Shown here piece by piece: positions 5,916 to 50,027 of a stretch of DNA of 64,000 bases. The DNA lies in IMG/VR virus record IMGVR_UViG_3300032205_000001, positions 108,218 to 172,217 of that record; one strand, given 5' to 3'. The stretch's first letter is position 1. Each line of letters starts with the position of its first letter. Position numbers and translations under genes: made by a program. Below the pieces are notes generated by a model. The model was not told the DNA's origin and did no database searches. It saw nothing but the letters and a program-made list of their open reading frames with translations. Source of the stretch: a virus. Its lineage: Duplodnaviria > Heunggongvirae > Uroviricota > Caudoviricetes.

Positions 5916-5998
5916 TGCCCCGGGCGGGAGTCGAACCCGCACGCTTTTTACGGCGCTCGTTTTTGAAACGAGTGTGTCTACCACTCCACCACCAGGGC
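5916..5998 (-). tRNA. tRNA-Leu(CAA)
   Basis: Loop TTCAAAA, variable arm. Confidence 0.88.
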
Positions 5999-6071
5999 GC
6001 ACGCGACCGGAATCGAACCGGCAACCTTCCCGTTGCTTAGGCGGGATGTTCTACCTTTGAACTACGCGAGC
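5999..6071 (-). ncRNA. aberrant tRNA with 9-nt anticodon loop (CCTAAGCAA)
   Basis: D and T arms normal; U3-U70 mismatch; no discriminator or CCA, abuts tRNA-Leu directly. Confidence 0.7.
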
Positions 6072-6079
6072 ATGAGCCG

Positions 6080-6196: not shown

Positions 6197-6201
6197 ATTC
6201 G

Positions 6202-6315
6202 TGCGGATGGATGGACTCGAACCACCGACTCCCAAGTTATAAACCTGGTACTCTTCCTGGCGTCCTTGTTCACGTCGATTGCTCTTCGTGGGATCGCTCT
6301 CTGAGTTACATCCGC
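6202..6315 (-). tRNA. tRNA-Ile(UAU)-like gene with ~40-nt D-loop insertion
   Basis: GCGGATG/CATCCGC; D stem ACTC/GAGT enclosing 49 nt; loop TTTATAA. Confidence 0.7.
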
Positions 6316-6320
6316 AGATG

Positions 6321-6396
6321 CGGATCGGGCGGGATTTGAACCACACAGTTCCCAGGGCTATTAACCCCGGGTGTTCTACCGTTGAACTACCGATCC
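6321..6396 (-). tRNA. atypical tRNA, anticodon AAU (Ile, A34), 7-bp anticodon stem
   Basis: CCCGGGG-TTAATAG-CCCTGGG; bulged T stem. Confidence 0.65.
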
Positions 6397-10850: not shown

Positions 10851-10894
10851 CTTGCTTACCGTTGCTCCCTTCCGGGCCTGGCGGGGTTCACAAG
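10851..10894 (-). ncRNA. SRP RNA domain IV (helix 8) hairpin
   Basis: CTTGTGAACCCCGCCAGG-CCC-GGAA-GGG-AGCAACGGTAAGCAAG: CAGG/AGCA symmetric loop and GGAA tetraloop. Confidence 0.8.
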
Positions 10895-10938: not shown

Positions 10939-11067
10939 TCTGGCAGTGAAGAGTCGAACTTCTGTTTGATAACCGTTTCCGGTCGGTTCGCGAACGAACA
11001 AAGAAGTGGTCACGGAGCGCTACAGGCTTGCGCCTGCACCCTAGGGCCCTCCTAGGGAAGCTGCCAG
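10939..11067 (-). ncRNA. tRNA-like/Y-like hybrid RNA 1
   Basis: CTGGCAG/CTGCCAG ends, T-loop TTCGACT, two hairpins in place of the D arm, module TTGTTCG-TTCG-CGAACCGA...ACGGTTATC. Confidence 0.75.
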
Positions 11068-11069
11068 AT

Positions 11070-11202
11070 TGGTCGACAGGGTCGGGAATTGAACCCAACT
11101 ACCACCAGTCCCTTGGTAACCATAAATCTACGGTTCACCGAAGCGAACAAAGAGCGATCCACGGCGTTTTTTACTGGTGCTCTACCGTTGAGCTACCTGT
11201 CG
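11070..11202 (-). ncRNA. tRNA/Y-like hybrid RNA 2
   Basis: Full tRNA body with CCA; module TTGTTCGC-TTCG-GTGAACCG...ATGGTTACC inserted in the anticodon arm. Confidence 0.8.
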
Positions 11203-11203
11203 G

Positions 11204-11274
11204 TCCCCCACGGAAGAGTCGAACTTCCGTCCTTCGCTTATCAAGCAACCGCTCTGCCATTGAGCTAGTGGGGG
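11204..11274 (-). tRNA. tRNA-Ile(GAU)
   Basis: Loop TTGATAA. Confidence 0.82.
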
Positions 11275-11330
11275 TTGTTACAGATCTTTGTGCGTTTGTT
11301 CCAGATCCAGATCGGGGATAGCCTTTGATC

Positions 11331-11489
11331 ATGCTGATCGCAATCTGGCCACTCGTCATCGCCGTCATTGGCGCCCTTGTGTACGCGCTTGCGAGTAACT
11401 CGAAAGCGGCTGAACTTGGCCGCCTCGTGTTCTTCTGCGGGTTCTTCTGGCTGGTGTACAGCCTCGTTGGACACACGCTGAAGATGTGA
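11331..11489 (+). CDS. small two-TM membrane protein (52 aa)
   Basis: Manual translation MLIAIWPLVIAVIGALVYALAS...FFCGFFWLVYSLVGHTLKM; sits exactly between two tRNA-Ile genes. Confidence 0.65.
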   Translation: MLIAIWPLVIAVIGALVYALASNSKAAELGRLVFFCGFFWLVYSLVGHTLKM

Positions 11490-11492
11490 TCG

Positions 11493-11565
11493 TAGGACTG
11501 GCTGGATTTGAACCAGCTACCCCGCGCTTATCAAGCACGTGCTCTACCAAGTGAGCTACAGTCCC
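11493..11565 (-). tRNA. tRNA-Ile(GAU)
   Basis: Loop TTGATAA. Confidence 0.9.
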
Positions 11566-11575
11566 AAACTGAAAG

Positions 11576-11659
11576 TGCCGGTGACAGGGGTCGAACCTGC
11601 CTGGCCTTGCGGCCACTGCGCCCTGAACGCAGCGTGTCTACCAAATCCACCACACCGGC
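11576..11659 (-). tRNA. tRNA-Leu(CAG)
   Basis: Loop TTCAGGG, variable arm. Confidence 0.9.
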
Positions 11660-11663
11660 AAAA

Positions 11664-12069
11664 GGGAAGTCCGTGAGTGTGCTGCTACGCCAAATGCTCT
11701 AAGGGCTGTTTCGGCCGTCGGGGCTCTCGCACTTCTGCGTTCGCACTGCTTCCCCTCAGACCCGCATTTCCTCTCGTACTGCGCGGGCAAAGCCGATCCG
11801 TGCTACCTGACTGTTTGGTCACGAGCGCCGAAGCTGTTGGAGGAAACTTACCCGTTTGACCGGGGTTAGAAATGCCAACGTGCTGCAACGCCGTCTAGTC
11901 TTCGCGTCCCTGTGGTTATACTCCGGTCGAGCAGTCTATCCCTCGGTCGTACTATTGACCTTTGTTGGGGACCGGAAAAGCTTGATTTCGCCTGCGCCGG
12001 GCTACTTTCTACCACTCGCAACTCTTCAAAGGATTGCTGCTTCTAAGCCAACCTCCTCATCGTCCTTCC
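11664..12069 (-). ncRNA. ~405-nt structured RNA containing 23S rRNA H43 and sarcin-ricin loop sequences
   Basis: GGAGGTTGGCTTAGAAGCAGCAATCCTTTGAAGAG at 12022-12056; CCCGC-GC-AGTACGAGAGGAA-AT-GCGGG at 11761-11787; ends pair GGAAG/CTTCC; bounded by two tRNAs. Confidence 0.75.
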
Positions 12070-12070
12070 G

Positions 12071-12144
12071 TCGGGGTGGTGAGACTCGAACTCACGAATT
12101 CCCTGGTCCCAAACCAGGTGTCCTGGCCGCTAGACTACACCCCG
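12071..12144 (-). tRNA. tRNA-Pro(UGG)
   Basis: C1-G72, loop TTTGGGA. Confidence 0.88.
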
Positions 12145-12150
12145 TAAACA

Positions 12151-12525
12151 CTAACCGAACCTGTTGCTGCCGAACGGCGCTATCATGCATCGTACGCCAG
12201 CATCGTCAAGAATTCCTGCCATCCTTCGACGACCAGCATCGTTAAATGAGTGCAGGACAACGAACTTTGGCCGCATCTCTTCCGGCAAGGTGGCGATGAA
12301 TTCAGCCACGTGTGTGCCGGTCTTCTCGTCGGATGCTGGACGACCAGCCGCAGCTAGCTCGGACAGGTCGTGGTCAAGGTACGCGAGATCGAACTTGGTC
12401 TTGGCAAGAGCCGCGCAAGCATCTGCGTAGTTCATGACCGCTGTGATGTCCATGCCGATGCGATCCATCTTGAACTTCTTGTGGCGCTCAGCGTCGTCGT
12501 CTAGGAAGAAAATTTTCTGGTTCAT
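12151..12525 (-). CDS. cyclic-phosphate processing receiver (cREC)-like domain protein
   Basis: FLDDD...YLDHDL...TG...LHSFN..GRRRM signature. Confidence 0.8.
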   Translation of the reverse strand: MNQKIFFLDDDAERHKKFKMDRIGMDITAVMNYADACAALAKTKFDLAYLDHDLSELAAAGRPASDEKTGTHVAEFIATLPEEMRPKFVVLHSFNDAGRRRMAGILDDAGVRCMIAPFGSNRFG

Positions 12526-12533
12526 ATGATCTT

Positions 12534-12668
12534 TGGTTGGACAGGTCGGGCTCGAACCGACAACACTCCGCGTTCTAGGCGATAACCATTCCTCGGTCGG
12601 TTCACTTGCGTGAACAAGGAATTGAAAAACGGCGTTTTAGAGGCCTCTACCAATTGGGCTACTGTCCA
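12534..12668 (-). ncRNA. tRNA/Y-like hybrid RNA 3
   Basis: TGGACAG/CTGTCCA-A-CCA; module TTGTTCAC-GCAA-GTGAACCG...ATGGTTATC in the 5' strand of the anticodon stem; residual loop CTAGAAC. Confidence 0.8.
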
Positions 12669-12678
12669 AAAAGTTTCG

Positions 12679-12808
12679 TTGCGCAACCAGGACTCGAACC
12701 TGGAACATCCCGCTTAATAGGCGATAACCATCTCTCGATCGGTTCGGTTGCCCGAACAATGTGGTGAAAAACGGTGTTTTAGGCGCTCTACCCTTGAGCT
12801 ATTGCGCA
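12679..12808 (-). ncRNA. tRNA/Y-like hybrid RNA 4
   Basis: TGCGCAA/TTGCGCA; module TTGTTCGG-GCAA-CCGAACCG...ATGGTTATC; residual loop CTATTAA. Confidence 0.8.
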
Positions 12809-12819
12809 GTAACAGATCG

Positions 12820-12946
12820 AGCGGCGAGGAGGAATTGGACCTCCACTTTCTCCTTGCATGGGATAACCATCCTCAGGCGGTTCGGTTGCCCGAACAAGAT
12901 GGCGAAGACGGAGATTTTAGACGTGCTACCGTTACACTATCGCCGC
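12820..12946 (-). ncRNA. tRNA/Y-like hybrid RNA 5
   Basis: GCGGCGA/TCGCCGC; module TTGTTCGG-GCAA-CCGAACCG...ATGGTTATC; residual loop CATGCAA. Confidence 0.8.
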
Positions 12947-12948
12947 AG

Positions 12949-13021
12949 TGGGAGCGGAGGGATTTGAGCCCTAACACCGAACGGCTTATGAGACCGTCGT
13001 CCTGACCCGCAGGTCGCTCCC
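12949..13021 (-). tRNA. tRNA(CAU), elongator Met or Ile2
   Basis: Loop CTCATAA; reduced D arm; T-loop CTCAAAT. Confidence 0.7.
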
Positions 13022-14322: not shown

Positions 14323-14397
14323 TGGTACCCCTACCAGGACTCTAACCCGGATCTGCCGGTCCGTAGCCGACCGCTCTTTACATTGAGCTATAGGGGC
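14323..14397 (-). tRNA. tRNA-Arg(ACG)
   Basis: Loop CTACGGA, CCA; T-loop TTAGAGT. Confidence 0.8.
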
Positions 14398-14398
14398 A

Positions 14399-14474
14399 TG
14401 GTGACTCCAAGAGGACTCGAACCTCTAACTTCCTGTTCCGTAGACAGGCGCTCTATCCATTGAGCTATGGAGCC
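14399..14474 (-). tRNA. tRNA-Arg(ACG)
   Basis: Loop CTACGGA, CCA. Confidence 0.9.
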
Positions 14475-14997: not shown

Positions 14998-15203
14998 TGC
15001 TTCTGGTCGGATTTGAACCGACGTCTCTCGATTCGTCATGCGTCGCATGTAGTCGACCGATTGATCAGACCGGCCTCCTTGAAGGTGATCTGCCTCCGTG
15101 CGACTTACCCGGTCAGCTCAGCCGTAAGAGACGATCTATCCCTCCGTGCTGTGCCGATGAGCTGCTGCTTGATCGAGCGCCTTAACCACTAGGCTACAGG
15201 AGC
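14998..15203 (-). ncRNA. tRNA body with ~130-140-nt insertion at the anticodon loop
   Basis: GCTCCTG acceptor, D arm TAGCCTAGTGGTTAAGGC, stem CTCGAT/ATCGAG enclosing the insert, T arm GTCGG-TTCAAAT-CCGAC. Confidence 0.8.
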
Positions 15204-15436: not shown

Positions 15437-15542
15437 GTGAACAAGGTGTGCATCTTGGAGATCAGCAACCACCGTTTAGAAGCGGCAGCGCATGACAGTC
15501 GGGTTATTAACCTGATTTGGTAACCAATCTGCGTCGGTTCAC
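15437..15542 (-). ncRNA. Y-RNA-like element A
   Basis: GTGAAC-C-GA...TGGTTACC...CCAA...TT-GTTCAC. Confidence 0.7.
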
Positions 15543-15546
15543 TTCG

Positions 15547-15618
15547 TGCGCGATACTGGAATCGAACCAGTGATCTCTTGCATGTCAAGCAAGCGTTCTG
15601 CCGCTGAACTAATCGCGC
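15547..15618 (-). tRNA. tRNA-Val(GAC)
   Basis: Loop TTGACAT. Confidence 0.9.
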
Positions 15619-15621
15619 ATA

Positions 15622-15680
15622 GACGAACAAGTGGGTGCTCGTGGGTGATTTACAAGATAACCCATGGGCTTCGGTTCGTC
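15622..15680 (-). ncRNA. Y-RNA-like element B
   Basis: GACGAAC-C-GA...TGGGTTATC...ACCCAC...TT-GTTCGTC. Confidence 0.75.
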
Positions 15681-15802
15681 GAAAATCTGTGCCTTTGACT
15701 CCAGGAAAAATCCGGTTATATTTGATCCGATGATCTGAGACCAGTGTATCGGTCTCATTGATGCCCGACCTCTGGAGTGATGGTGGGCGGCTGGCGCTTT
15801 GA

Positions 15803-15878
15803 TGGTGACCCTGGTGGGAATCGAACCCAACATTTCCGGGGTGAAAAGCCGGTTGCTTAGCCATTGGCAGACAGGGCC
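15803..15878 (-). tRNA. tRNA-Glu(UUC)
   Basis: Loop TTTTCAC, CCA. Confidence 0.8.
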
Positions 15879-15882
15879 ATGT

Positions 15883-16071
15883 ATGAAGAAGGAAGATCTA
15901 GTTCGCTGGTTGAAAGTTTACGGAGACCACAAGGACAGCTGTGGAATTACCCAGGTGATCAGAGATCACCGGGCGAAAACCGACTCGGAGGGCAGAAAAA
16001 TCTACCCAGAATGCAGCTGCGGCTGGACTGAGATCAGCCGGTCGCTGGACAAACTATTCAAGCTGAATTGA
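15883..16071 (+). CDS. hypothetical protein (62 aa)
   Basis: ATG 15883 to TGA 16071 fills the gap between two tRNAs; HxxxC...CxC. Confidence 0.5.
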   Translation: MKKEDLVRWLKVYGDHKDSCGITQVIRDHRAKTDSEGRKIYPECSCGWTEISRSLDKLFKLN

Positions 16072-16140
16072 GCACGCCGAGGGAGTCGAACCCACTACTT
16101 ACAGGGTTGCAATCTGTAGCCTGGCCGCCAGGTGACGTGC
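16071..16140 (-). tRNA. tRNA-Cys(GCA)
   Basis: Loop TTGCAAC, U73. Confidence 0.8.
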
Positions 16141-16146
16141 AAAGCC

Positions 16147-16212
16147 CACGAACAAAGAGATGAACCTTGGGGTGATCATTAACAGTGATAACCAAAGCTC
16201 GAACGGTTCGCG
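16147..16212 (-). ncRNA. Y-RNA-like element C
   Basis: CGCGAAC-C-GT...TTGGTTATC...CCAA...TT-GTTCGTG. Confidence 0.72.
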
Positions 16213-16221
16213 GAAAAAATT

Positions 16222-16286
16222 GAACGAACAAGTTGGTTGCTCCAAGGAGTCACATGTTAGGTAACCTTGGTGCGATCGGTTCGCTC
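16222..16286 (-). ncRNA. Y-RNA-like element D
   Basis: GAGCGAAC-C-GA...CCAAGGTTACC...CCTTGG...TT-GTTCGTTC. Confidence 0.75.
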
Positions 16287-16324
16287 GAAAAGTTCGGTGA
16301 GCAAGAATTTGTGACTGGTTAGGT

Positions 16325-16398
16325 TGGTCGGGAGGCGGATTTCAACCGCTACCTCCGGGGGTTCTAGCCCCGGCGCTCTAGCAATTAAGCTACCCCGG
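16325..16398 (-). ncRNA. aberrant tRNA, anticodon AGA, short class I body, weak acceptor stem
   Basis: CCGGGG-CTAGAAC-CCCCGG; encoded CCA; only about 5 acceptor pairs. Confidence 0.6.
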
Positions 16399-16424
16399 CG
16401 GTAATCCAATCACGACGGCTCACC

Positions 16425-16501
16425 TGGCATCGCTACAGGGATTCGAACCCTGGTTTCCGCGCTGAGAACGCAGCGTACTCGGCCGACTGTACGATAGCGA
16501 C
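16425..16501 (-). tRNA. tRNA-Glu(CUC)
   Basis: Loop TTCTCAG, CCA. Confidence 0.85.
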
Positions 16502-16507
16502 AAAATA

Positions 16508-16566
16508 GCGAACAAGTTTGTGCTCGTGGGGTACATTTGGCAGATAACCCACATGCTTCGGTTCGC
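16508..16566 (-). ncRNA. Y-RNA-like element E
   Basis: GCGAAC-C-GA...GTGGGTTATC...CCCAC...TT-GTTCGC. Confidence 0.75.
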
Positions 16567-16567
16567 A

Positions 16568-16644
16568 TGGTGACCCTACTGGGATTTGAACCCGAGATTT
16601 CAGCCTTGAGAGGGCCGCGTCCTAAACCGTTGGACGATAGGGCC
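16568..16644 (-). tRNA. tRNA-Glu(CUC)
   Basis: Loop CTCTCAA, CCA. Confidence 0.9.
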
Positions 16645-16647
16645 AAA

Positions 16648-16714
16648 GAACGAACAAGAAATGGAGCAGGGGTTGTTCATCCAATTGAGGTAACCCTGTT
16701 CCGACGGTTCGTCC
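16648..16714 (-). ncRNA. Y-RNA-like element F
   Basis: GGACGAAC-C-GT...CAGGGTTACC...CCCTG...TT-GTTCGTTC. Confidence 0.75.
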
Positions 16715-16725
16715 AAAAAGAAAGC

Positions 16726-16811
16726 GATGAACAAGTAGCGCGTCTGGCTTGCAGGTTCGACCCTGCACGGCTTTCGCCGCTTTTCCGATAACTCAAACGC
16801 CTCGGTTCACC
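16726..16811 (-). ncRNA. Y-RNA-like element G with internal T-arm-like hairpin
   Basis: GGTGAAC-C-GA-G-GCGTTTG-AGTTATC...GCAGG-GTCGAA-CCTGC...CAGACGC...TT-GTTCATC. Confidence 0.72.
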
Positions 16812-16854
16812 TAAAACGGACTTTCGCCTGTCTTGAGGCGATTGTCAAAAGGAA

Positions 16855-48423: not shown

Positions 48424-50027
48424 GCGACGACTTTGGCGAAGCGCTTACTCGGGTGATCAAGAAGGTTCAGCGCAACGGTAAGCCCGTCAAGCAGGCATTT
48501 CATGTGAGGCAGGCAGCTCCCGGCGATGAATACTCGGCGCTCAAGACTTCGGCGCTCAAGACTTCGCCGCAGAAGAATCCGAAGGCGACTCCGAGGCCAG
48601 CATCGCAAGATCCTCAAGCAGTACAAGATCCGGCGGCGCAGGACATCCCTCCTGAGGAGATGCAGCAACCGCCGGTCACCAGGATGACCGTCAGTTATTT
48701 TGAGCCGCCCTGGAAGAAGGACGAGGAAGAGGAGCAAGACCCAATTCCTCGTGCTCTGCGGAAGCGGTTCGACAAGGACAACAAAGCGGCCAATTTCATC
48801 AATCCTCAGGTCACTGGGATGCCGGTGATTAGCGTTGTGCCGACGGATAGGATTTTCTGGGGCGGTGACGAGCCGGATATTTTGCGGGCTCTGCGCCTTG
48901 GTTCTATTCGCAGGATGCGCCTCGTTGGTGACAACGGGATGATGGTCGTCAAGCTGGAAGCGATAGGCAGTGGTTCGTATGCAGTGTCAGCCGGTTCCTT
49001 CTATGCCTACATGTGGATGGAGTCGCTTCGCTGTCCGCTATTGAGACAGATCTGGGGAGATCTGATCGATTTCGGTGAGAACGGTACGCTATCAAAGCGC
49101 GCTGCCGCAGCATATGAAACGGCCAAAGCATGCGGACTTGACGATCTGACGCCGCCGACGGTTTACCGCCAGGACACCGAAGGTGATGTCCGAGCGATGC
49201 TTCCTGATTCGCTCATCGAACGTATCTCAACAGAATGGGTGTCTAGGCAGACCGGCAAGGATGCCGATACGGTTCGTAAGGAAATCAGCGGTCATGCCAC
49301 GGTGCAGCTAATTAGAGGCGAGCCGTGGCCTATTGAAGAAGAAGAATGGTTCAGCAACCTGTTCAAGGAGAGCGACCCTGATGCGCTGAATCAGATCTGG
49401 TCGTACCTTCCGCCAGAGCGTCGTGTCGCATTTTTGCGGCTGGCAGCCTTGGATTTCCTTGTTGGATCTCTGGATCGCTCCTACGGAGACATGGCGTTCT
49501 CTGATGACCCACGCCACCCAGTGATGGTGTTTGGCGGGGAAATGAGCTGTCCGTGTCCTCGAAAAATCGGCCTTGCCTACATTGGCGGAAATTATTCCGG
49601 TTATGCAGACCCACTAGATCCGACATCCGGTGGTCTGCCATTGCTCTGGAGCGAAGCCTCAACAATGCTCGCTACACAGGGAACAGACCAGGAAATCGCA
49701 GACTTTGAGGCCATTGGTATTTCTGTGGCTGACCGTATGAAAGACGACCGAGGATCTGAGCTAGCCAGGGCTTTGCTTGAGTATGGGTTGACGCCTTTGC
49801 AGATTGCTGGGATTCTGACTCGGATCTGGATGATGCAGACGTTCTCTAGGGACATTGCCAGGGATCCTTACTTCGCTGCGAGGTATTACGGTTCTGTTGT
49901 CTCTGGGAATCCAGATTCGCTGATGGAAGGATTGGCCGACTTCGCGAACAACGTTCTAAGCAAGGTGATGGTCAACCCGTTCGACTTCTATGAAGAAATG
50001 AAGAGAGACGATGCAGGCGATATCTGA
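48420..50027 (+). CDS. HipA/PI3K-like kinase-fold protein, probably degenerate
   Basis: AAAYETAKACGLDDLTPPT; DFLVGSLDRSYGD. Confidence 0.6.
   Translation: MSDDFGEALTRVIKKVQRNGKPVKQAFHVRQAAPGDEYSALKTSALKTSPQKNPKATPRPASQDPQAVQDPAAQDIPPEEMQQPPVTRMTVSYFEPPWKKDEEEEQDPIPRALRKRFDKDNKAANFINPQVTGMPVISVVPTDRIFWGGDEPDILRALRLGSIRRMRLVGDNGMMVVKLEAIGSGSYAVSAGSFYAYMWMESLRCPLLRQIWGDLIDFGENGTLSKRAAAAYETAKACGLDDLTPPTVYRQDTEGDVRAMLPDSLIERISTEWVSRQTGKDADTVRKEISGHATVQLIRGEPWPIEEEEWFSNLFKESDPDALNQIWSYLPPERRVAFLRLAALDFLVGSLDRSYGDMAFSDDPRHPVMVFGGEMSCPCPRKIGLAYIGGNYSGYADPLDPTSGGLPLLWSEASTMLATQGTDQEIADFEAIGISVADRMKDDRGSELARALLEYGLTPLQIAGILTRIWMMQTFSRDIARDPYFAARYYGSVVSGNPDSLMEGLADFANNVLSKVMVNPFDFYEEMKRDDAGDI

What the first reader, a model, noticed from the sequence alone, without database searches (positions are those of the whole stretch)
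10939..12946. tRNA-Y-module chimeras: the module is grafted into anticodon arms and capped by UUCG/GCAA tetraloops
Seen in sequence: five RNAs keep tRNA-like acceptor ends and a T arm (four also keep a normal D arm; two encode CCA). Each carries CCGT...TTGTTC-[stem-TTCG or GCAA]-GAACCG...A(T/C)GGTTA(T/C)C. This is the free element circularly permuted, with its open end closed by a stable tetraloop. Deleting the module restores perfect anticodon stems in hybrids 3, 4 and 5 (TC+CGC/GCGGA, CC+CGC/GCGGG, TCT+CC/GGAGA). Established knowledge: bacterial YrlA also fuses a Ro-binding stem with a tRNA mimic, but in the opposite permutation, with a closed acceptor stem. Inference: these are either aminoacylatable or CCA-bearing Ro60 tethers, or a new class of small tRNA intervening sequences.
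Basis: partly seen in the sequence, partly recalled or inferred. Interest (0 to 1): 0.9.

Follow-up and report, generated by a model that had tools for sequence, protein, structure and literature searches.

The report
tRNA bodies carrying Ro60-binding Y-RNA stems
A large uncultured phage encodes five tRNA-shaped RNAs with a hairpin branching from the anticodon stem that looks like the Y-RNA stem bound by the RNA quality-control protein Ro60, a new way of joining two known RNA modules that is kept in several Ro60-encoding giant phages.

Summary
On the minus strand, five ~130-nt RNAs (H1-H5) keep tRNA acceptor and T arms; four also keep a D arm, and H2 and H3 encode ACCA. Each carries a tetraloop-capped ~57-nt module in the 5' strand of the anticodon stem.

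The module is the phage's free Y-RNA-like element, circularly permuted. It has helix I (UUGUUC/GAAC-[C]-G, with a bulged C), a 7-9 bp helix II and a UUAY motif.

I found at least 21 such hybrids in three lineages of tRNA-rich large phages. All seven helices covary: 94% of cells are paired against 34-48% in slid controls. The G-C and U.G pairs flanking the bulged C never vary.

A syntenic relative encodes a full-length Ro60, with a Y RNA carrying the same helix directly upstream. A second, complete 360-kb phage with hybrids also encodes Ro60. The window's own record is a fragment, so its lack of Ro60 says nothing.

Best reading (about 0.65): these are Y RNAs displayed on a tRNA body. They would work like YrlA but in a new topology, be processed like tRNAs, and bind Ro60. 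An intron reading is disfavoured. Expression and binding are untested.

The same scan noted the module copies before, on this same stretch.

The parts
12817..12946 (-). Hybrid H5. tRNA body: acceptor GCGGCGA/UCGCCGC, D arm, T arm. Split anticodon stem UCU+CC/GGAGA with loop CAUGCAA.
   Evidence: CM R1 scores 115 bits. Orthologs N5, R5, M5 and E5 carry compensatory anticodon-stem changes: GCU/AGC, CUC/GAG, AUC/GAU, ACC/GGU.
12863..12919 (-). H5 Y module with its A-rich linker: CCGU..UUGUUCGG-GCAA-CCGAAC[C]G..AUGG-UUAU.
12676..12808 (-). Hybrid H4. Acceptor UGCGCAA/UUGCGCA. Split anticodon stem CC+CGC/GCGGG with loop CUAUUAA.
   Evidence: CM R1 scores 139.9 bits. The MFE fold recovers the arms and both module helices.
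12724..12782 (-). H4 Y module, GCAA cap.
12534..12668 (-). Hybrid H3. Acceptor UGGACAG/CUGUCCA. Split anticodon stem UC+CGC/GCGGA with loop CUAGAAC. Encodes ACCA.
   Evidence: CM R1 scores 121 bits.
12582..12640 (-). H3 Y module, GCAA cap.
11070..11202 (-). Hybrid H2. Acceptor CGACAGG/CCUGUCG, 6-bp T stem. The module sits between the intact anticodon stem CCAGU/ACUGG and its loop. Encodes ACCA and abuts tRNA-Ile.
   Evidence: CM R1 scores 71 bits. Orthologs R2, M2 and N2 have compensatory stems: GCCGU/ACGGC, CCGGU/ACCGG.
11116..11172 (-). H2 Y module, UUCG cap.
10939..11067 (-). Hybrid H1. Acceptor CUGGCAG/CUGCCAG plus T arm. The D arm is replaced by two hairpins and there is no anticodon stem. 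The Y module has a UUCG cap.
   Evidence: In ortholog N1 (L280), 5 of 7 acceptor pairs and the second hairpin are changed on both sides.
10969..11023 (-). H1 Y module: CCGU/ACGG helix II, UUCG cap.
15437..16813 (-). Context: a cluster of free, open-ended Y-like modules between tRNAs. 5' ends are near 16810, 16712, 16566, 16284, 16211, 15679 and 15542. One Y stem at 16297-16423 encloses a whole tRNA-like body.
   Evidence: Rfam sbRNA model RF01656 scores 33.6 and 28.4 bits (E 1e-4 and 2.5e-3; gathering score 38).

Best explanation
H1-H5 are stable phage non-coding RNAs in which a complete Y-RNA stem is displayed on a tRNA body. The stem is the presumed Ro60-binding helix, with its bulged C, followed by a second helix and the UUAY motif.

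Its usual open end is closed by a UUCG or GNRA tetraloop. Its apical loop is opened and spliced into the 5' strand of the tRNA anticodon stem, after position 28, 29 or 31. The RNA therefore has genuine tRNA termini and a genuine tRNA elbow.

Inferred mechanism:
- The RNAs are transcribed as part of the polycistronic tRNA array.
- RNase P, 3'-end processing and the CCA-adding enzyme cut them out and finish them like tRNAs. The tRNA fold also protects them, as in the engineered 'tRNA scaffold'.
- The projecting hairpin binds the phage (or host) Ro60.
- The result is a two-module RNP equivalent in parts to YrlA (Ro60-binding stem plus tRNA mimic) but in a third, previously undescribed topology. 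It couples Ro60 to whatever recognises the tRNA part.

Shown here: the architecture, its conservation and covariation, and its co-occurrence with Ro60 genes. Inferred: Ro60 binding, processing, stability, and everything downstream.
For: (1) Anatomy in all five copies is as described.

(2) At least 21 hybrids score 55-140 bits with model R1, against 48 bits or less for ordinary tRNAs. They come from three lineages:
- the window's clade: G000, G001, G004, L280 and L283, about 56% GC;
- G003, 51% GC;
- G002, 43% GC.

(3) Covariation supports every helix.
- CM-fitted alignment A5: 94.5% of cells paired against 34-46% when partners are slid. 30 of 38 pairs have changes on both sides, and 0 of 500 shuffles reach this.
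- Plain MAFFT alignment A3: 93.9% against 39-48%, 23 of 38 pairs, 0 of 500.
- Helix I varies as UUGUUC/GAAC, UUGUUC/GAGC, UUGCUC/GAGC, UUGUCC/GGAC, UUGUUUG/CAAAC, UUGCGUA/UACGC, UUGCUUA/UAAGC and UUGUUGU/ACAAC. The G-C pair, the bulged C and the U.G pair are 21/21 invariant.

(4) The tRNA elbow nucleotides U8, A14, G18, G53, U54, C56, A58 and C61 are invariant.

(5) The module has Y-RNA character.
- Free copies align to the Rfam sbRNA model (nematode Y-RNA homologue) over CG..CCG.AG...UGGGUUAUC...CCCA...ACUUG..CG, at 33.6 bits and E 1e-4.
- The G001 copies read GCCGAAG, which matches the YrlA motif GNCGAAN0-1G (PMC4201824).
- UUAY matches YrlA's YUAY at the start of the V loop.

(6) Ro60 link.
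- G001 encodes a 557-aa protein with TROVE and vWA_Ro60 domains. It matches D. radiodurans Rsr at E 4.5e-128 and Xenopus Ro60 at 6e-121.
- In the 290-nt gap directly upstream lies a ~180-nt RNA closed by AGCGAGC[C]GAAG / CUUGUUCGCU. It has GGUUACC and a U-run, and folds with z = -5.4.
- The complete genome G002 has at least 4 hybrids and a TROVE gene.
- Ro60 occurs in only 371 of 50,697 GenBank phage records.

(7) The hybrids are packed 0-11 nt from neighbouring tRNAs, with no excess of promoter-like or terminator-like sites inside the array.

(8) Engineered tRNA scaffolds show that an RNA inserted in place of the anticodon arm is processed and stabilised in bacteria (PMC3753655).
Against: - There are no expression, end-mapping or binding data.
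- The window's own 175-kb record has no TROVE gene. The record is a fragment that does not cover the part where G001 carries it, so this is uninformative rather than contrary.
- Hybrids lie about 130 kb from the Ro60 gene in G001, not beside it.
- Two other Ro60-encoding jumbo phages, Sinorhizobium phage Phosso and G005, have no hybrids. The fragments G003 and G004 show no TROVE gene.
- No Rfam Y_RNA or YrlA match reaches threshold.
- Many hybrids keep a well-formed 7-nt anticodon-like loop with U33 and A37. One G003 hybrid even pairs a GUA loop with a long variable arm, as in tRNA-Tyr. A pure scaffold would not need this.
Confidence: 0.65

Rival explanations
1. The module is a small intervening sequence. 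It is cut out and the halves are ligated, perhaps by the island's RNA-repair enzymes, to give ordinary decoding tRNAs.
For: - Deleting the module restores perfect 5-bp anticodon stems, and ARAGORN then calls tRNAs in 17 of 20 cases.
- Many loops are 7 nt with U33 and A37.
- A G003 hybrid has a GUA loop plus a long variable arm.
- A cREC domain protein, predicted to process cyclic phosphates and linked to RNA ligases (PMC7824862), is encoded between H3 and tRNA-Pro.
Against: - The would-be anticodon changes among close orthologs of one hybrid type: AUU, CUU, CUU, CAU, CAA.
- Type 5 has A33 in H5, R5 and M5, and E5 has an 8-nt loop. Type 2 loops are 6-8 nt and irregular. H1 has no anticodon arm at all.
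- The phages already carry intact tRNAs for several of these anticodons.
- The insert sits in the stem at three different positions, not at 37/38, and I saw no bulge-helix-bulge motif by eye.
- 57 nt is far too small for a group I intron.
- The insert is itself a conserved, covarying, protein-site-like structure that also exists free and as a stand-alone hairpin.
Confidence: 0.08
2. The RNAs are real tRNA-scaffolded hairpins, but the hairpin binds something other than Ro60, such as another phage or host RNA-binding protein or a nuclease. The likeness to Y RNA would then be convergent.
For: - The Rfam match is below the gathering score.
- The hybrids are not next to the Ro60 gene.
- Phosso and G005 have Ro60 without hybrids.
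- The same phages put other, non-Y inserts into tRNA bodies, so the scaffold is general.
Against: - The same helix closes the RNA that sits directly upstream of Ro60 in G001.
- The invariant features (G-C, bulged C, G.U, then UUAY after the second helix) are those shared by vertebrate and nematode Y RNAs and by YrlA.
- Both hybrid-bearing records judged complete or nearly so, G001 (although itself a fragment by synteny) and G002, encode Ro60, against 0.7% of GenBank phage records.
Confidence: 0.17
3. The hybrids are dead tRNA genes disrupted by a selfish, hairpin-forming mobile sequence.
For: - The module occurs at different insertion points and in different tRNA bodies.
- It also occurs free and alone in intergenic leaders.
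- No parental tRNA can be recognised.
Against: - Acceptor and T stems are 100% paired across 21 copies, with changes on both sides at 11 of 12 pairs.
- The elbow nucleotides are invariant.
- Orthologs are kept at syntenic places across phages whose flanking proteins are only 60-80% identical.
- Pseudogenes would not keep compensatory changes.
Confidence: 0.03

Closest known systems
YrlA (Rfam RF02553), the tRNA-mimicking Y RNA of Salmonella, Mycobacterium smegmatis and mycobacteriophages (Chen et al. 2014, PMC4201824)
   Same: Two modules in one RNA: a Ro60-binding stem with a CGA-type motif, and a tRNA-like domain with T and D arms and elbow nucleotides. A YUAY/UUAY motif sits where the stem meets the tRNA-like part. 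Found in Ro60-encoding phages.
   Different: - YrlA's 5' and 3' ends lie in the Ro-binding stem and its acceptor-like stem is closed by a loop. Here the Ro stem is capped and the acceptor stem is open, some copies with encoded CCA.
- The hybrids keep an extra anticodon-like stem-loop.
- They are multi-copy, sit inside tRNA arrays, and are not adjacent to the Ro60 gene.
- They get no RF02553 hit.
Deinococcus radiodurans Yrn1
   Same: A Y RNA with partial tRNA likeness in a different orientation from YrlA: the stem-loop between its T and D arms takes the anticodon-arm position (PMC4201824). The window's Y stem that encloses a tRNA-like body at 16297-16423 resembles this layout.
   Different: In Yrn1 the Ro-binding stem still holds the RNA's ends. 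The hybrids invert this.
Vertebrate Y RNAs and nematode stem-bulge RNAs (Rfam RF01656)
   Same: Lower stem with a single bulged C next to G.U and A-U pairs, an asymmetric internal loop, an upper stem of about 9 bp, and then UUAUC.
   Different: Those RNAs are free, with open ends and La-binding U tails. Here the ends are joined by a tetraloop and the apical loop is replaced by a tRNA.
Engineered 'tRNA scaffold' for recombinant RNA expression (Ponchon and Dardel; PMC3753655)
   Same: A foreign structured RNA is placed in the anticodon arm of a tRNA whose acceptor, D and T arms secure processing and nuclease resistance.
   Different: The scaffold is man-made, and it replaces the anticodon stem-loop. 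The phage hybrids branch from the 5' strand and mostly keep the anticodon-like hairpin.
tRNA introns (bacterial group I in anticodon loops; archaeal bulge-helix-bulge introns)
   Same: Extra sequence inside the anticodon arm of a tRNA gene, whose removal restores the cloverleaf.
   Different: Size, position, lack of a catalytic core or a bulge-helix-bulge motif, drifting anticodons, and an insert that is a conserved protein-site-like hairpin.

Membership tests
YrlA (RF02553) | Conserved Ro60-contact motif GNCGAAN0-1G (like vertebrate GGUCCGA) on the strand leading into the tRNA-like domain | tested here: met
   G001-type copies read GCCGAAG or GCCGAC. Window copies read ACCGA(A/C/U). The C[C]G core is invariant in 21 of 21 hybrids. 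Motif taken from PMC4201824.
YrlA (RF02553) | The RNA's 5' and 3' ends form the Ro-binding stem, and the acceptor-like stem is closed by a loop | tested here: not met
   The Ro-type stem is closed by UUCG, GCAA or GAAA. The acceptor stem is open, with a discriminator base and sometimes CCA.
YrlA (RF02553) | tRNA-like T and D arms with the nucleotides for elbow tertiary contacts | tested here: met
   U8, A14, G18, G53, U54, C56, A58 and C61 are invariant in alignment A3. D and T stems covary. H1 lacks the D arm.
YrlA (RF02553) | Encoded next to the Ro60 (rsr) gene | tested here: not met
   In G001 the hybrids lie at about 43-44 kb and Ro60 at about 173.5 kb. A different, unpermuted Y RNA is adjacent to Ro60.
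YrlA (RF02553) | Score at or above the Rfam gathering threshold (69 bits) | tested here: not met
   Only spurious 20-28 bit hits over ordinary tRNAs, and none on the hybrids.
Y RNA / stem-bulge RNA (RF01656) | Bulged-C lower stem, upper stem and UUAUC motif | tested here: met
   Alignment of the free copies to the RF01656 consensus. The same elements are present in the hybrids in permuted order.
Y RNA / stem-bulge RNA (RF01656) | Gathering score (38 bits) and open termini at the base of the stem | tested here: not met
   The best free copy scores 33.6 bits. The hybrids are capped, so the model cannot match them.
Y RNA / stem-bulge RNA (RF01656) | Physical binding by Ro60 | not testable with these tools
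   Only genomic association is available.
Canonical tRNA (RF00005) | Uninterrupted cloverleaf detected by tRNA finders, with a stable anticodon among orthologs | tested here: not met
   No ARAGORN call. Rfam gives at most a partial 19.7-bit hit on H4. tRNAs are called only after the module is deleted. The triplet drifts among orthologs.
tRNA intron (group I or bulge-helix-bulge) | Insert at 37/38 or flanked by a bulge-helix-bulge motif, or a group I catalytic core | tested here: not met
   Inserts lie after position 28, 29 or 31 in the stem and are 57 nt long. There is no intron family hit in Rfam. The bulge-helix-bulge motif was judged by eye only.

The most novel reading that the evidence does not exclude
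The hybrids are working tRNA look-alikes with CCA ends, possibly aminoacylated, and with exposed, fast-evolving anticodon-like loops. They would carry Ro60 to proteins that grip tRNAs. Candidates are host anticodon nucleases and other tRNA-targeting defences, or the phage's own tRNA-repair enzymes (cREC, RNA ligase). They would then act as baits or sensors that couple tRNA damage surveillance to Ro60-directed RNA decay or repair during infection.
Probability: 0.15. Interest if true: 0.92.

Novelty: new variant of a known kind. Interest (0 to 1): 0.8.

Why it matters
Y RNAs that combine a Ro60-binding stem with a tRNA mimic are known, but the purpose of the tRNA mimicry is an open question.

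- **A third topology.** Here the same two modules are joined in a third way, using a real tRNA frame with real tRNA ends. The design recurs in three phage lineages and in up to five paralogues per genome. That argues that it is the pairing of Ro60 with a tRNA shape that selection wants, not one particular fold history.
- **Testable RNAs.** The hybrids can be tested directly for processing, CCA addition, charging and Ro60 binding.
- **Natural precedent for a laboratory tool.** They are a natural counterpart of the engineered 'tRNA scaffold'.
- **Gene annotation.** Phage tRNA arrays can hide composite non-coding RNAs that tRNA finders miss.

Tried and rejected
Most hits were chance matches in coding DNA, for example a prophage gene and L005, L163, L276-L279 and L282. 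They still yielded the real members L025, L085 and L137 after a hairpin filter.
- **A strict window-type pattern** found nothing outside the window's own record.
- **The capped pattern in 185,579 species-representative bacterial and archaeal genomes** gave only 4 coding-sequence chance hits, so no cellular copy was found.
- **blastn of hybrid regions against GenBank phages** found only ordinary tRNAs or nothing.
- **Model R1 in other Ro60-encoding phages.** It found no hybrids in Sinorhizobium phage Phosso or in G005.
- **Rfam** gave no Y_RNA or YrlA hit on the hybrids.
- **Search for a parental tRNA.** The module-deleted bodies match every tRNA at background level only, 0.7-0.79 identity.
- **RtcB** is absent from G000 and G001.
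- **Motif scan for a Y RNA beside the G002 Ro60 gene** found nothing convincing.
- **A first helix-scan script** had an off-by-one error. It was corrected.
- **The tRNA-pseudogene reading** was rejected on covariation.
Full report
**Setting.** The window is part of a 175-kb IMG/VR virus record with a T4-type portal gene.
- ARAGORN finds 47 tRNA genes, all on the minus strand between 300 and 21,400.
- Synteny with the relative G001 (194 kb) shows that each record holds about 77-90 kb the other lacks. Both are therefore fragments of a genome of at least about 270 kb.

**The observation.** Read on the minus strand, the five elements are exactly as described.
- Each begins with a 7-bp acceptor strand.
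- H2-H5 continue with U8-A9 and a D arm. H1 has two hairpins there instead.
- All end with a T arm, the acceptor 3' strand and a discriminator base. H2 and H3 add CCA.
- Between lies a ~57-nt module, in this order:
  - an A-rich linker;
  - CCGU, which opens a 7-9 bp helix II;
  - about five unpaired bases;
  - UUGUUC plus 1-2 further pairs;
  - a UUCG or GCAA tetraloop;
  - the returning strand GAAC-C-G with one bulged C;
  - the 3' strand of helix II, ending AUGG (ACGG in H1);
  - UUAY.
- In H3 and H4 the module lies between positions 28 and 29 of the anticodon stem, and in H5 between 29 and 30. In H2 it lies between the stem and its loop.
- A small hairpin with a 7-nt loop completes the stem in H3-H5.
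- The motif GAACCG..GGTTAY occurs 11 times against 0.14 expected.
- ARAGORN, blind to the hybrids as they stand, calls a tRNA in 17 of 20 hybrids and relatives once the module is deleted in silico.
- MFE folds recover the tRNA arms and the capped helix.

**The module is the free element, permuted.**
- Between tRNAs at 15437-16813 lie six to eight free ~60-110-nt RNAs. Their order is 5'-(N)GAAC[C]G - helix II - UUAYC loop - helix II - UUGUUC(N)-3'.
- Two of them align end to end with Rfam's nematode stem-bulge RNA model, the worm homologue of Y RNA. They score 33.6 and 28.4 bits (gathering score 38; E 1e-4 and 2.5e-3 in a 1.4-kb search).
- They share the consensus CG..CCG.AG...UGGGUUAUC / CCCA...ACUUG..CG.
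- The hybrids carry the same two halves in the opposite order, joined by a tetraloop.

**Relatives.**
- Flanking proteins led to G001, at 60-80% amino-acid identity. Its syntenic array holds orthologs of H5, H4 and H2.
- Pattern scans added four more sources: G004, a 15-kb metagenome contig closest to the window (L280, with orthologs of all five), L283, and two unrelated tRNA-rich phages. The two unrelated phages are G002 (360 kb, complete, 43% GC) and G003 (51% GC).
- A covariance model built from 13 hybrids separates hybrids from ordinary tRNAs, at 55-140 bits against 48 or less. It also revealed further copies in G002 and G003.
- No copy turned up in species-representative bacterial and archaeal genomes or in cultured phages.

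**Structure is under selection.**
- On 21 hybrids, 94.5% of cells are paired, against 34-46% when partners are slid. 30 of 38 pairs show changes on both sides, and no shuffle reaches this.
- An unfitted MAFFT alignment of 13 hybrids gives 93.9% against 39-48%, with 23 of 38 pairs.
- Both halves of the split anticodon stem covary, for example UCU/AGA, GCU/AGC, CUC/GAG, AUC/GAU and ACC/GGU in type 5.
- Helix I changes sequence freely. Its G-C pair, bulged C and U.G pair never vary.
- The nucleotides of the tRNA elbow are invariant.
- This rules out decaying pseudogenes.

**Link to Ro60.**
- The window's record has no TROVE gene. G001 does, in the part of the genome that the window's record does not cover.
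- The G001 protein is a full-length Ro60. It has TROVE and vWA_Ro60 domains and matches Rsr at E 4.5e-128 and Xenopus Ro60 at 6e-121.
- In the 290-nt gap just upstream lies a ~180-nt RNA.
  - It is preceded by a TTGACT-17-TAAAGT promoter-like site and ends in a U-run.
  - It is closed by AGCGAGC[C]GAAG / CUUGUUCGCU and contains GGUUACC.
  - It folds with z = -5.4.
  - This is the classical Y-RNA-beside-rsr arrangement, with the same helix as the modules.
- G002, complete and carrying at least four hybrids and about nine free modules, also encodes Ro60.
- Ro60 is present in 0.7% of GenBank phage records.
- Published work shows that phage Ro60 binds phage Y-like RNAs (PMC12135203). It also shows that YrlA joins a Ro-binding stem to a tRNA mimic (PMC4201824).

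**Interpretation.**
- The hybrids have the same parts as YrlA but with the ends moved. Here the Ro stem is capped and the acceptor stem is open.
- Their tight packing among tRNAs, and the lack of internal promoter or terminator signals, suggest release by tRNA processing. The engineered tRNA scaffold shows that such fusions are processed and stable in bacteria (PMC3753655).
- The intron alternative is weak.
  - The would-be anticodon drifts among close orthologs (AUU, CUU, CUU, CAU, CAA).
  - Several loops are irregular, and H1 has no anticodon arm.
  - The insert is itself conserved.
- Still unexplained is why most hybrids keep a tidy anticodon-like loop. This leaves room for a bait or sensor role.

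**Limits.**
- There are no expression or binding data.
- Hybrids are absent from two other Ro60-encoding jumbo phages.
- Part of the covariation evidence rests on an alignment fitted to the model, and the sequences are related to one another.

Noticed in passing
window 10851-10894 (-); L117 about 10945-10990: A hairpin matching domain IV of bacterial SRP (4.5S) RNA: Rfam Bacteria_small_SRP at 40.7 bits, gathering score 40. It sits just after H1, is preceded by a TTGACA-N17-(C/T)ATTAG promoter-like site, and is conserved in G001 and L280.
   Followed up: partly
window 16297-16423 (-): A Y-type stem (GUGAGC[C]G..GAUUACC / ..UUGCUCAC) encloses a whole tRNA-like body, which ARAGORN calls tRNA-Ser(aga). 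This is a third way of joining Y stem and tRNA, through the acceptor end. A homolog lies in G001 near 49465.
   Followed up: partly
window 14998-15203 (-): Rfam tRNA match (47.8 bits) spanning 206 nt, that is a tRNA with an insert of about 135 nt. ARAGORN does not call it.
   Followed up: no
window 6199-6315 (-); L123 19026-19141 (-): A 117-nt tRNA-like RNA with acceptor and T arms but a large non-Y insert in the D/anticodon region. It is conserved in G001.
   Followed up: no
L255 16653-16770, 18444-18623, 18624-18751; L256 1011-1152, 7930-8091 (G002, minus strand): Further tRNA bodies in the 360-kb phage carry 50-100-nt inserts that are not Y modules. The tRNA frame seems to be used as a general carrier.
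   Followed up: no
L284 200-290 and 335-400: Two capped Y-type hairpins stand alone, with no tRNA body, in the gaps upstream of ORFs on a 1.7-kb metagenome contig (48% GC).
   Followed up: no
window 12949-13021 (-); L117 9622-9700; L280 8815-8879: A weak tRNA-like RNA (Rfam 25.6 bits) with a CUCAUAA loop and an aberrant D region lies directly upstream of H5. It is conserved in relatives.
   Followed up: no
L117 8419-9600 (G001): The relative encodes an EF-Tu-like GTPase inside the tRNA array. The window has other ORFs at the syntenic place.
   Followed up: no
window 11660-12069 (-): An ORF-poor stretch of about 400 nt between tRNA-Pro and tRNA-Leu has two tiny Rfam LSU-rRNA fragment hits (12030-12054 and 11761-11787, E above 1). 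ARAGORN makes no tmRNA call there.
   Followed up: no
window 12151-12525 (-): A cREC (cyclic-phosphate processing receiver) domain protein, Pfam PF20274 at E 1.6e-12, is encoded between H3 and tRNA-Pro. It is 80% identical in G001.
   Followed up: partly
whole record (G000) against G001: G000 1-77 kb and G001 104-194 kb have no counterpart in each other, so the true genome is at least about 270 kb. CheckV completeness values of 80% and 91% are overestimates.
   Followed up: yes
window 6320-6396, 5995-6072, 16326-16399, 14323-14474 (-): The tRNA set includes several A34 anticodons: Ile AAU, Leu AAG, Ser AGA and Arg ACG. This is unusual for bacterial systems apart from Arg.
   Followed up: no
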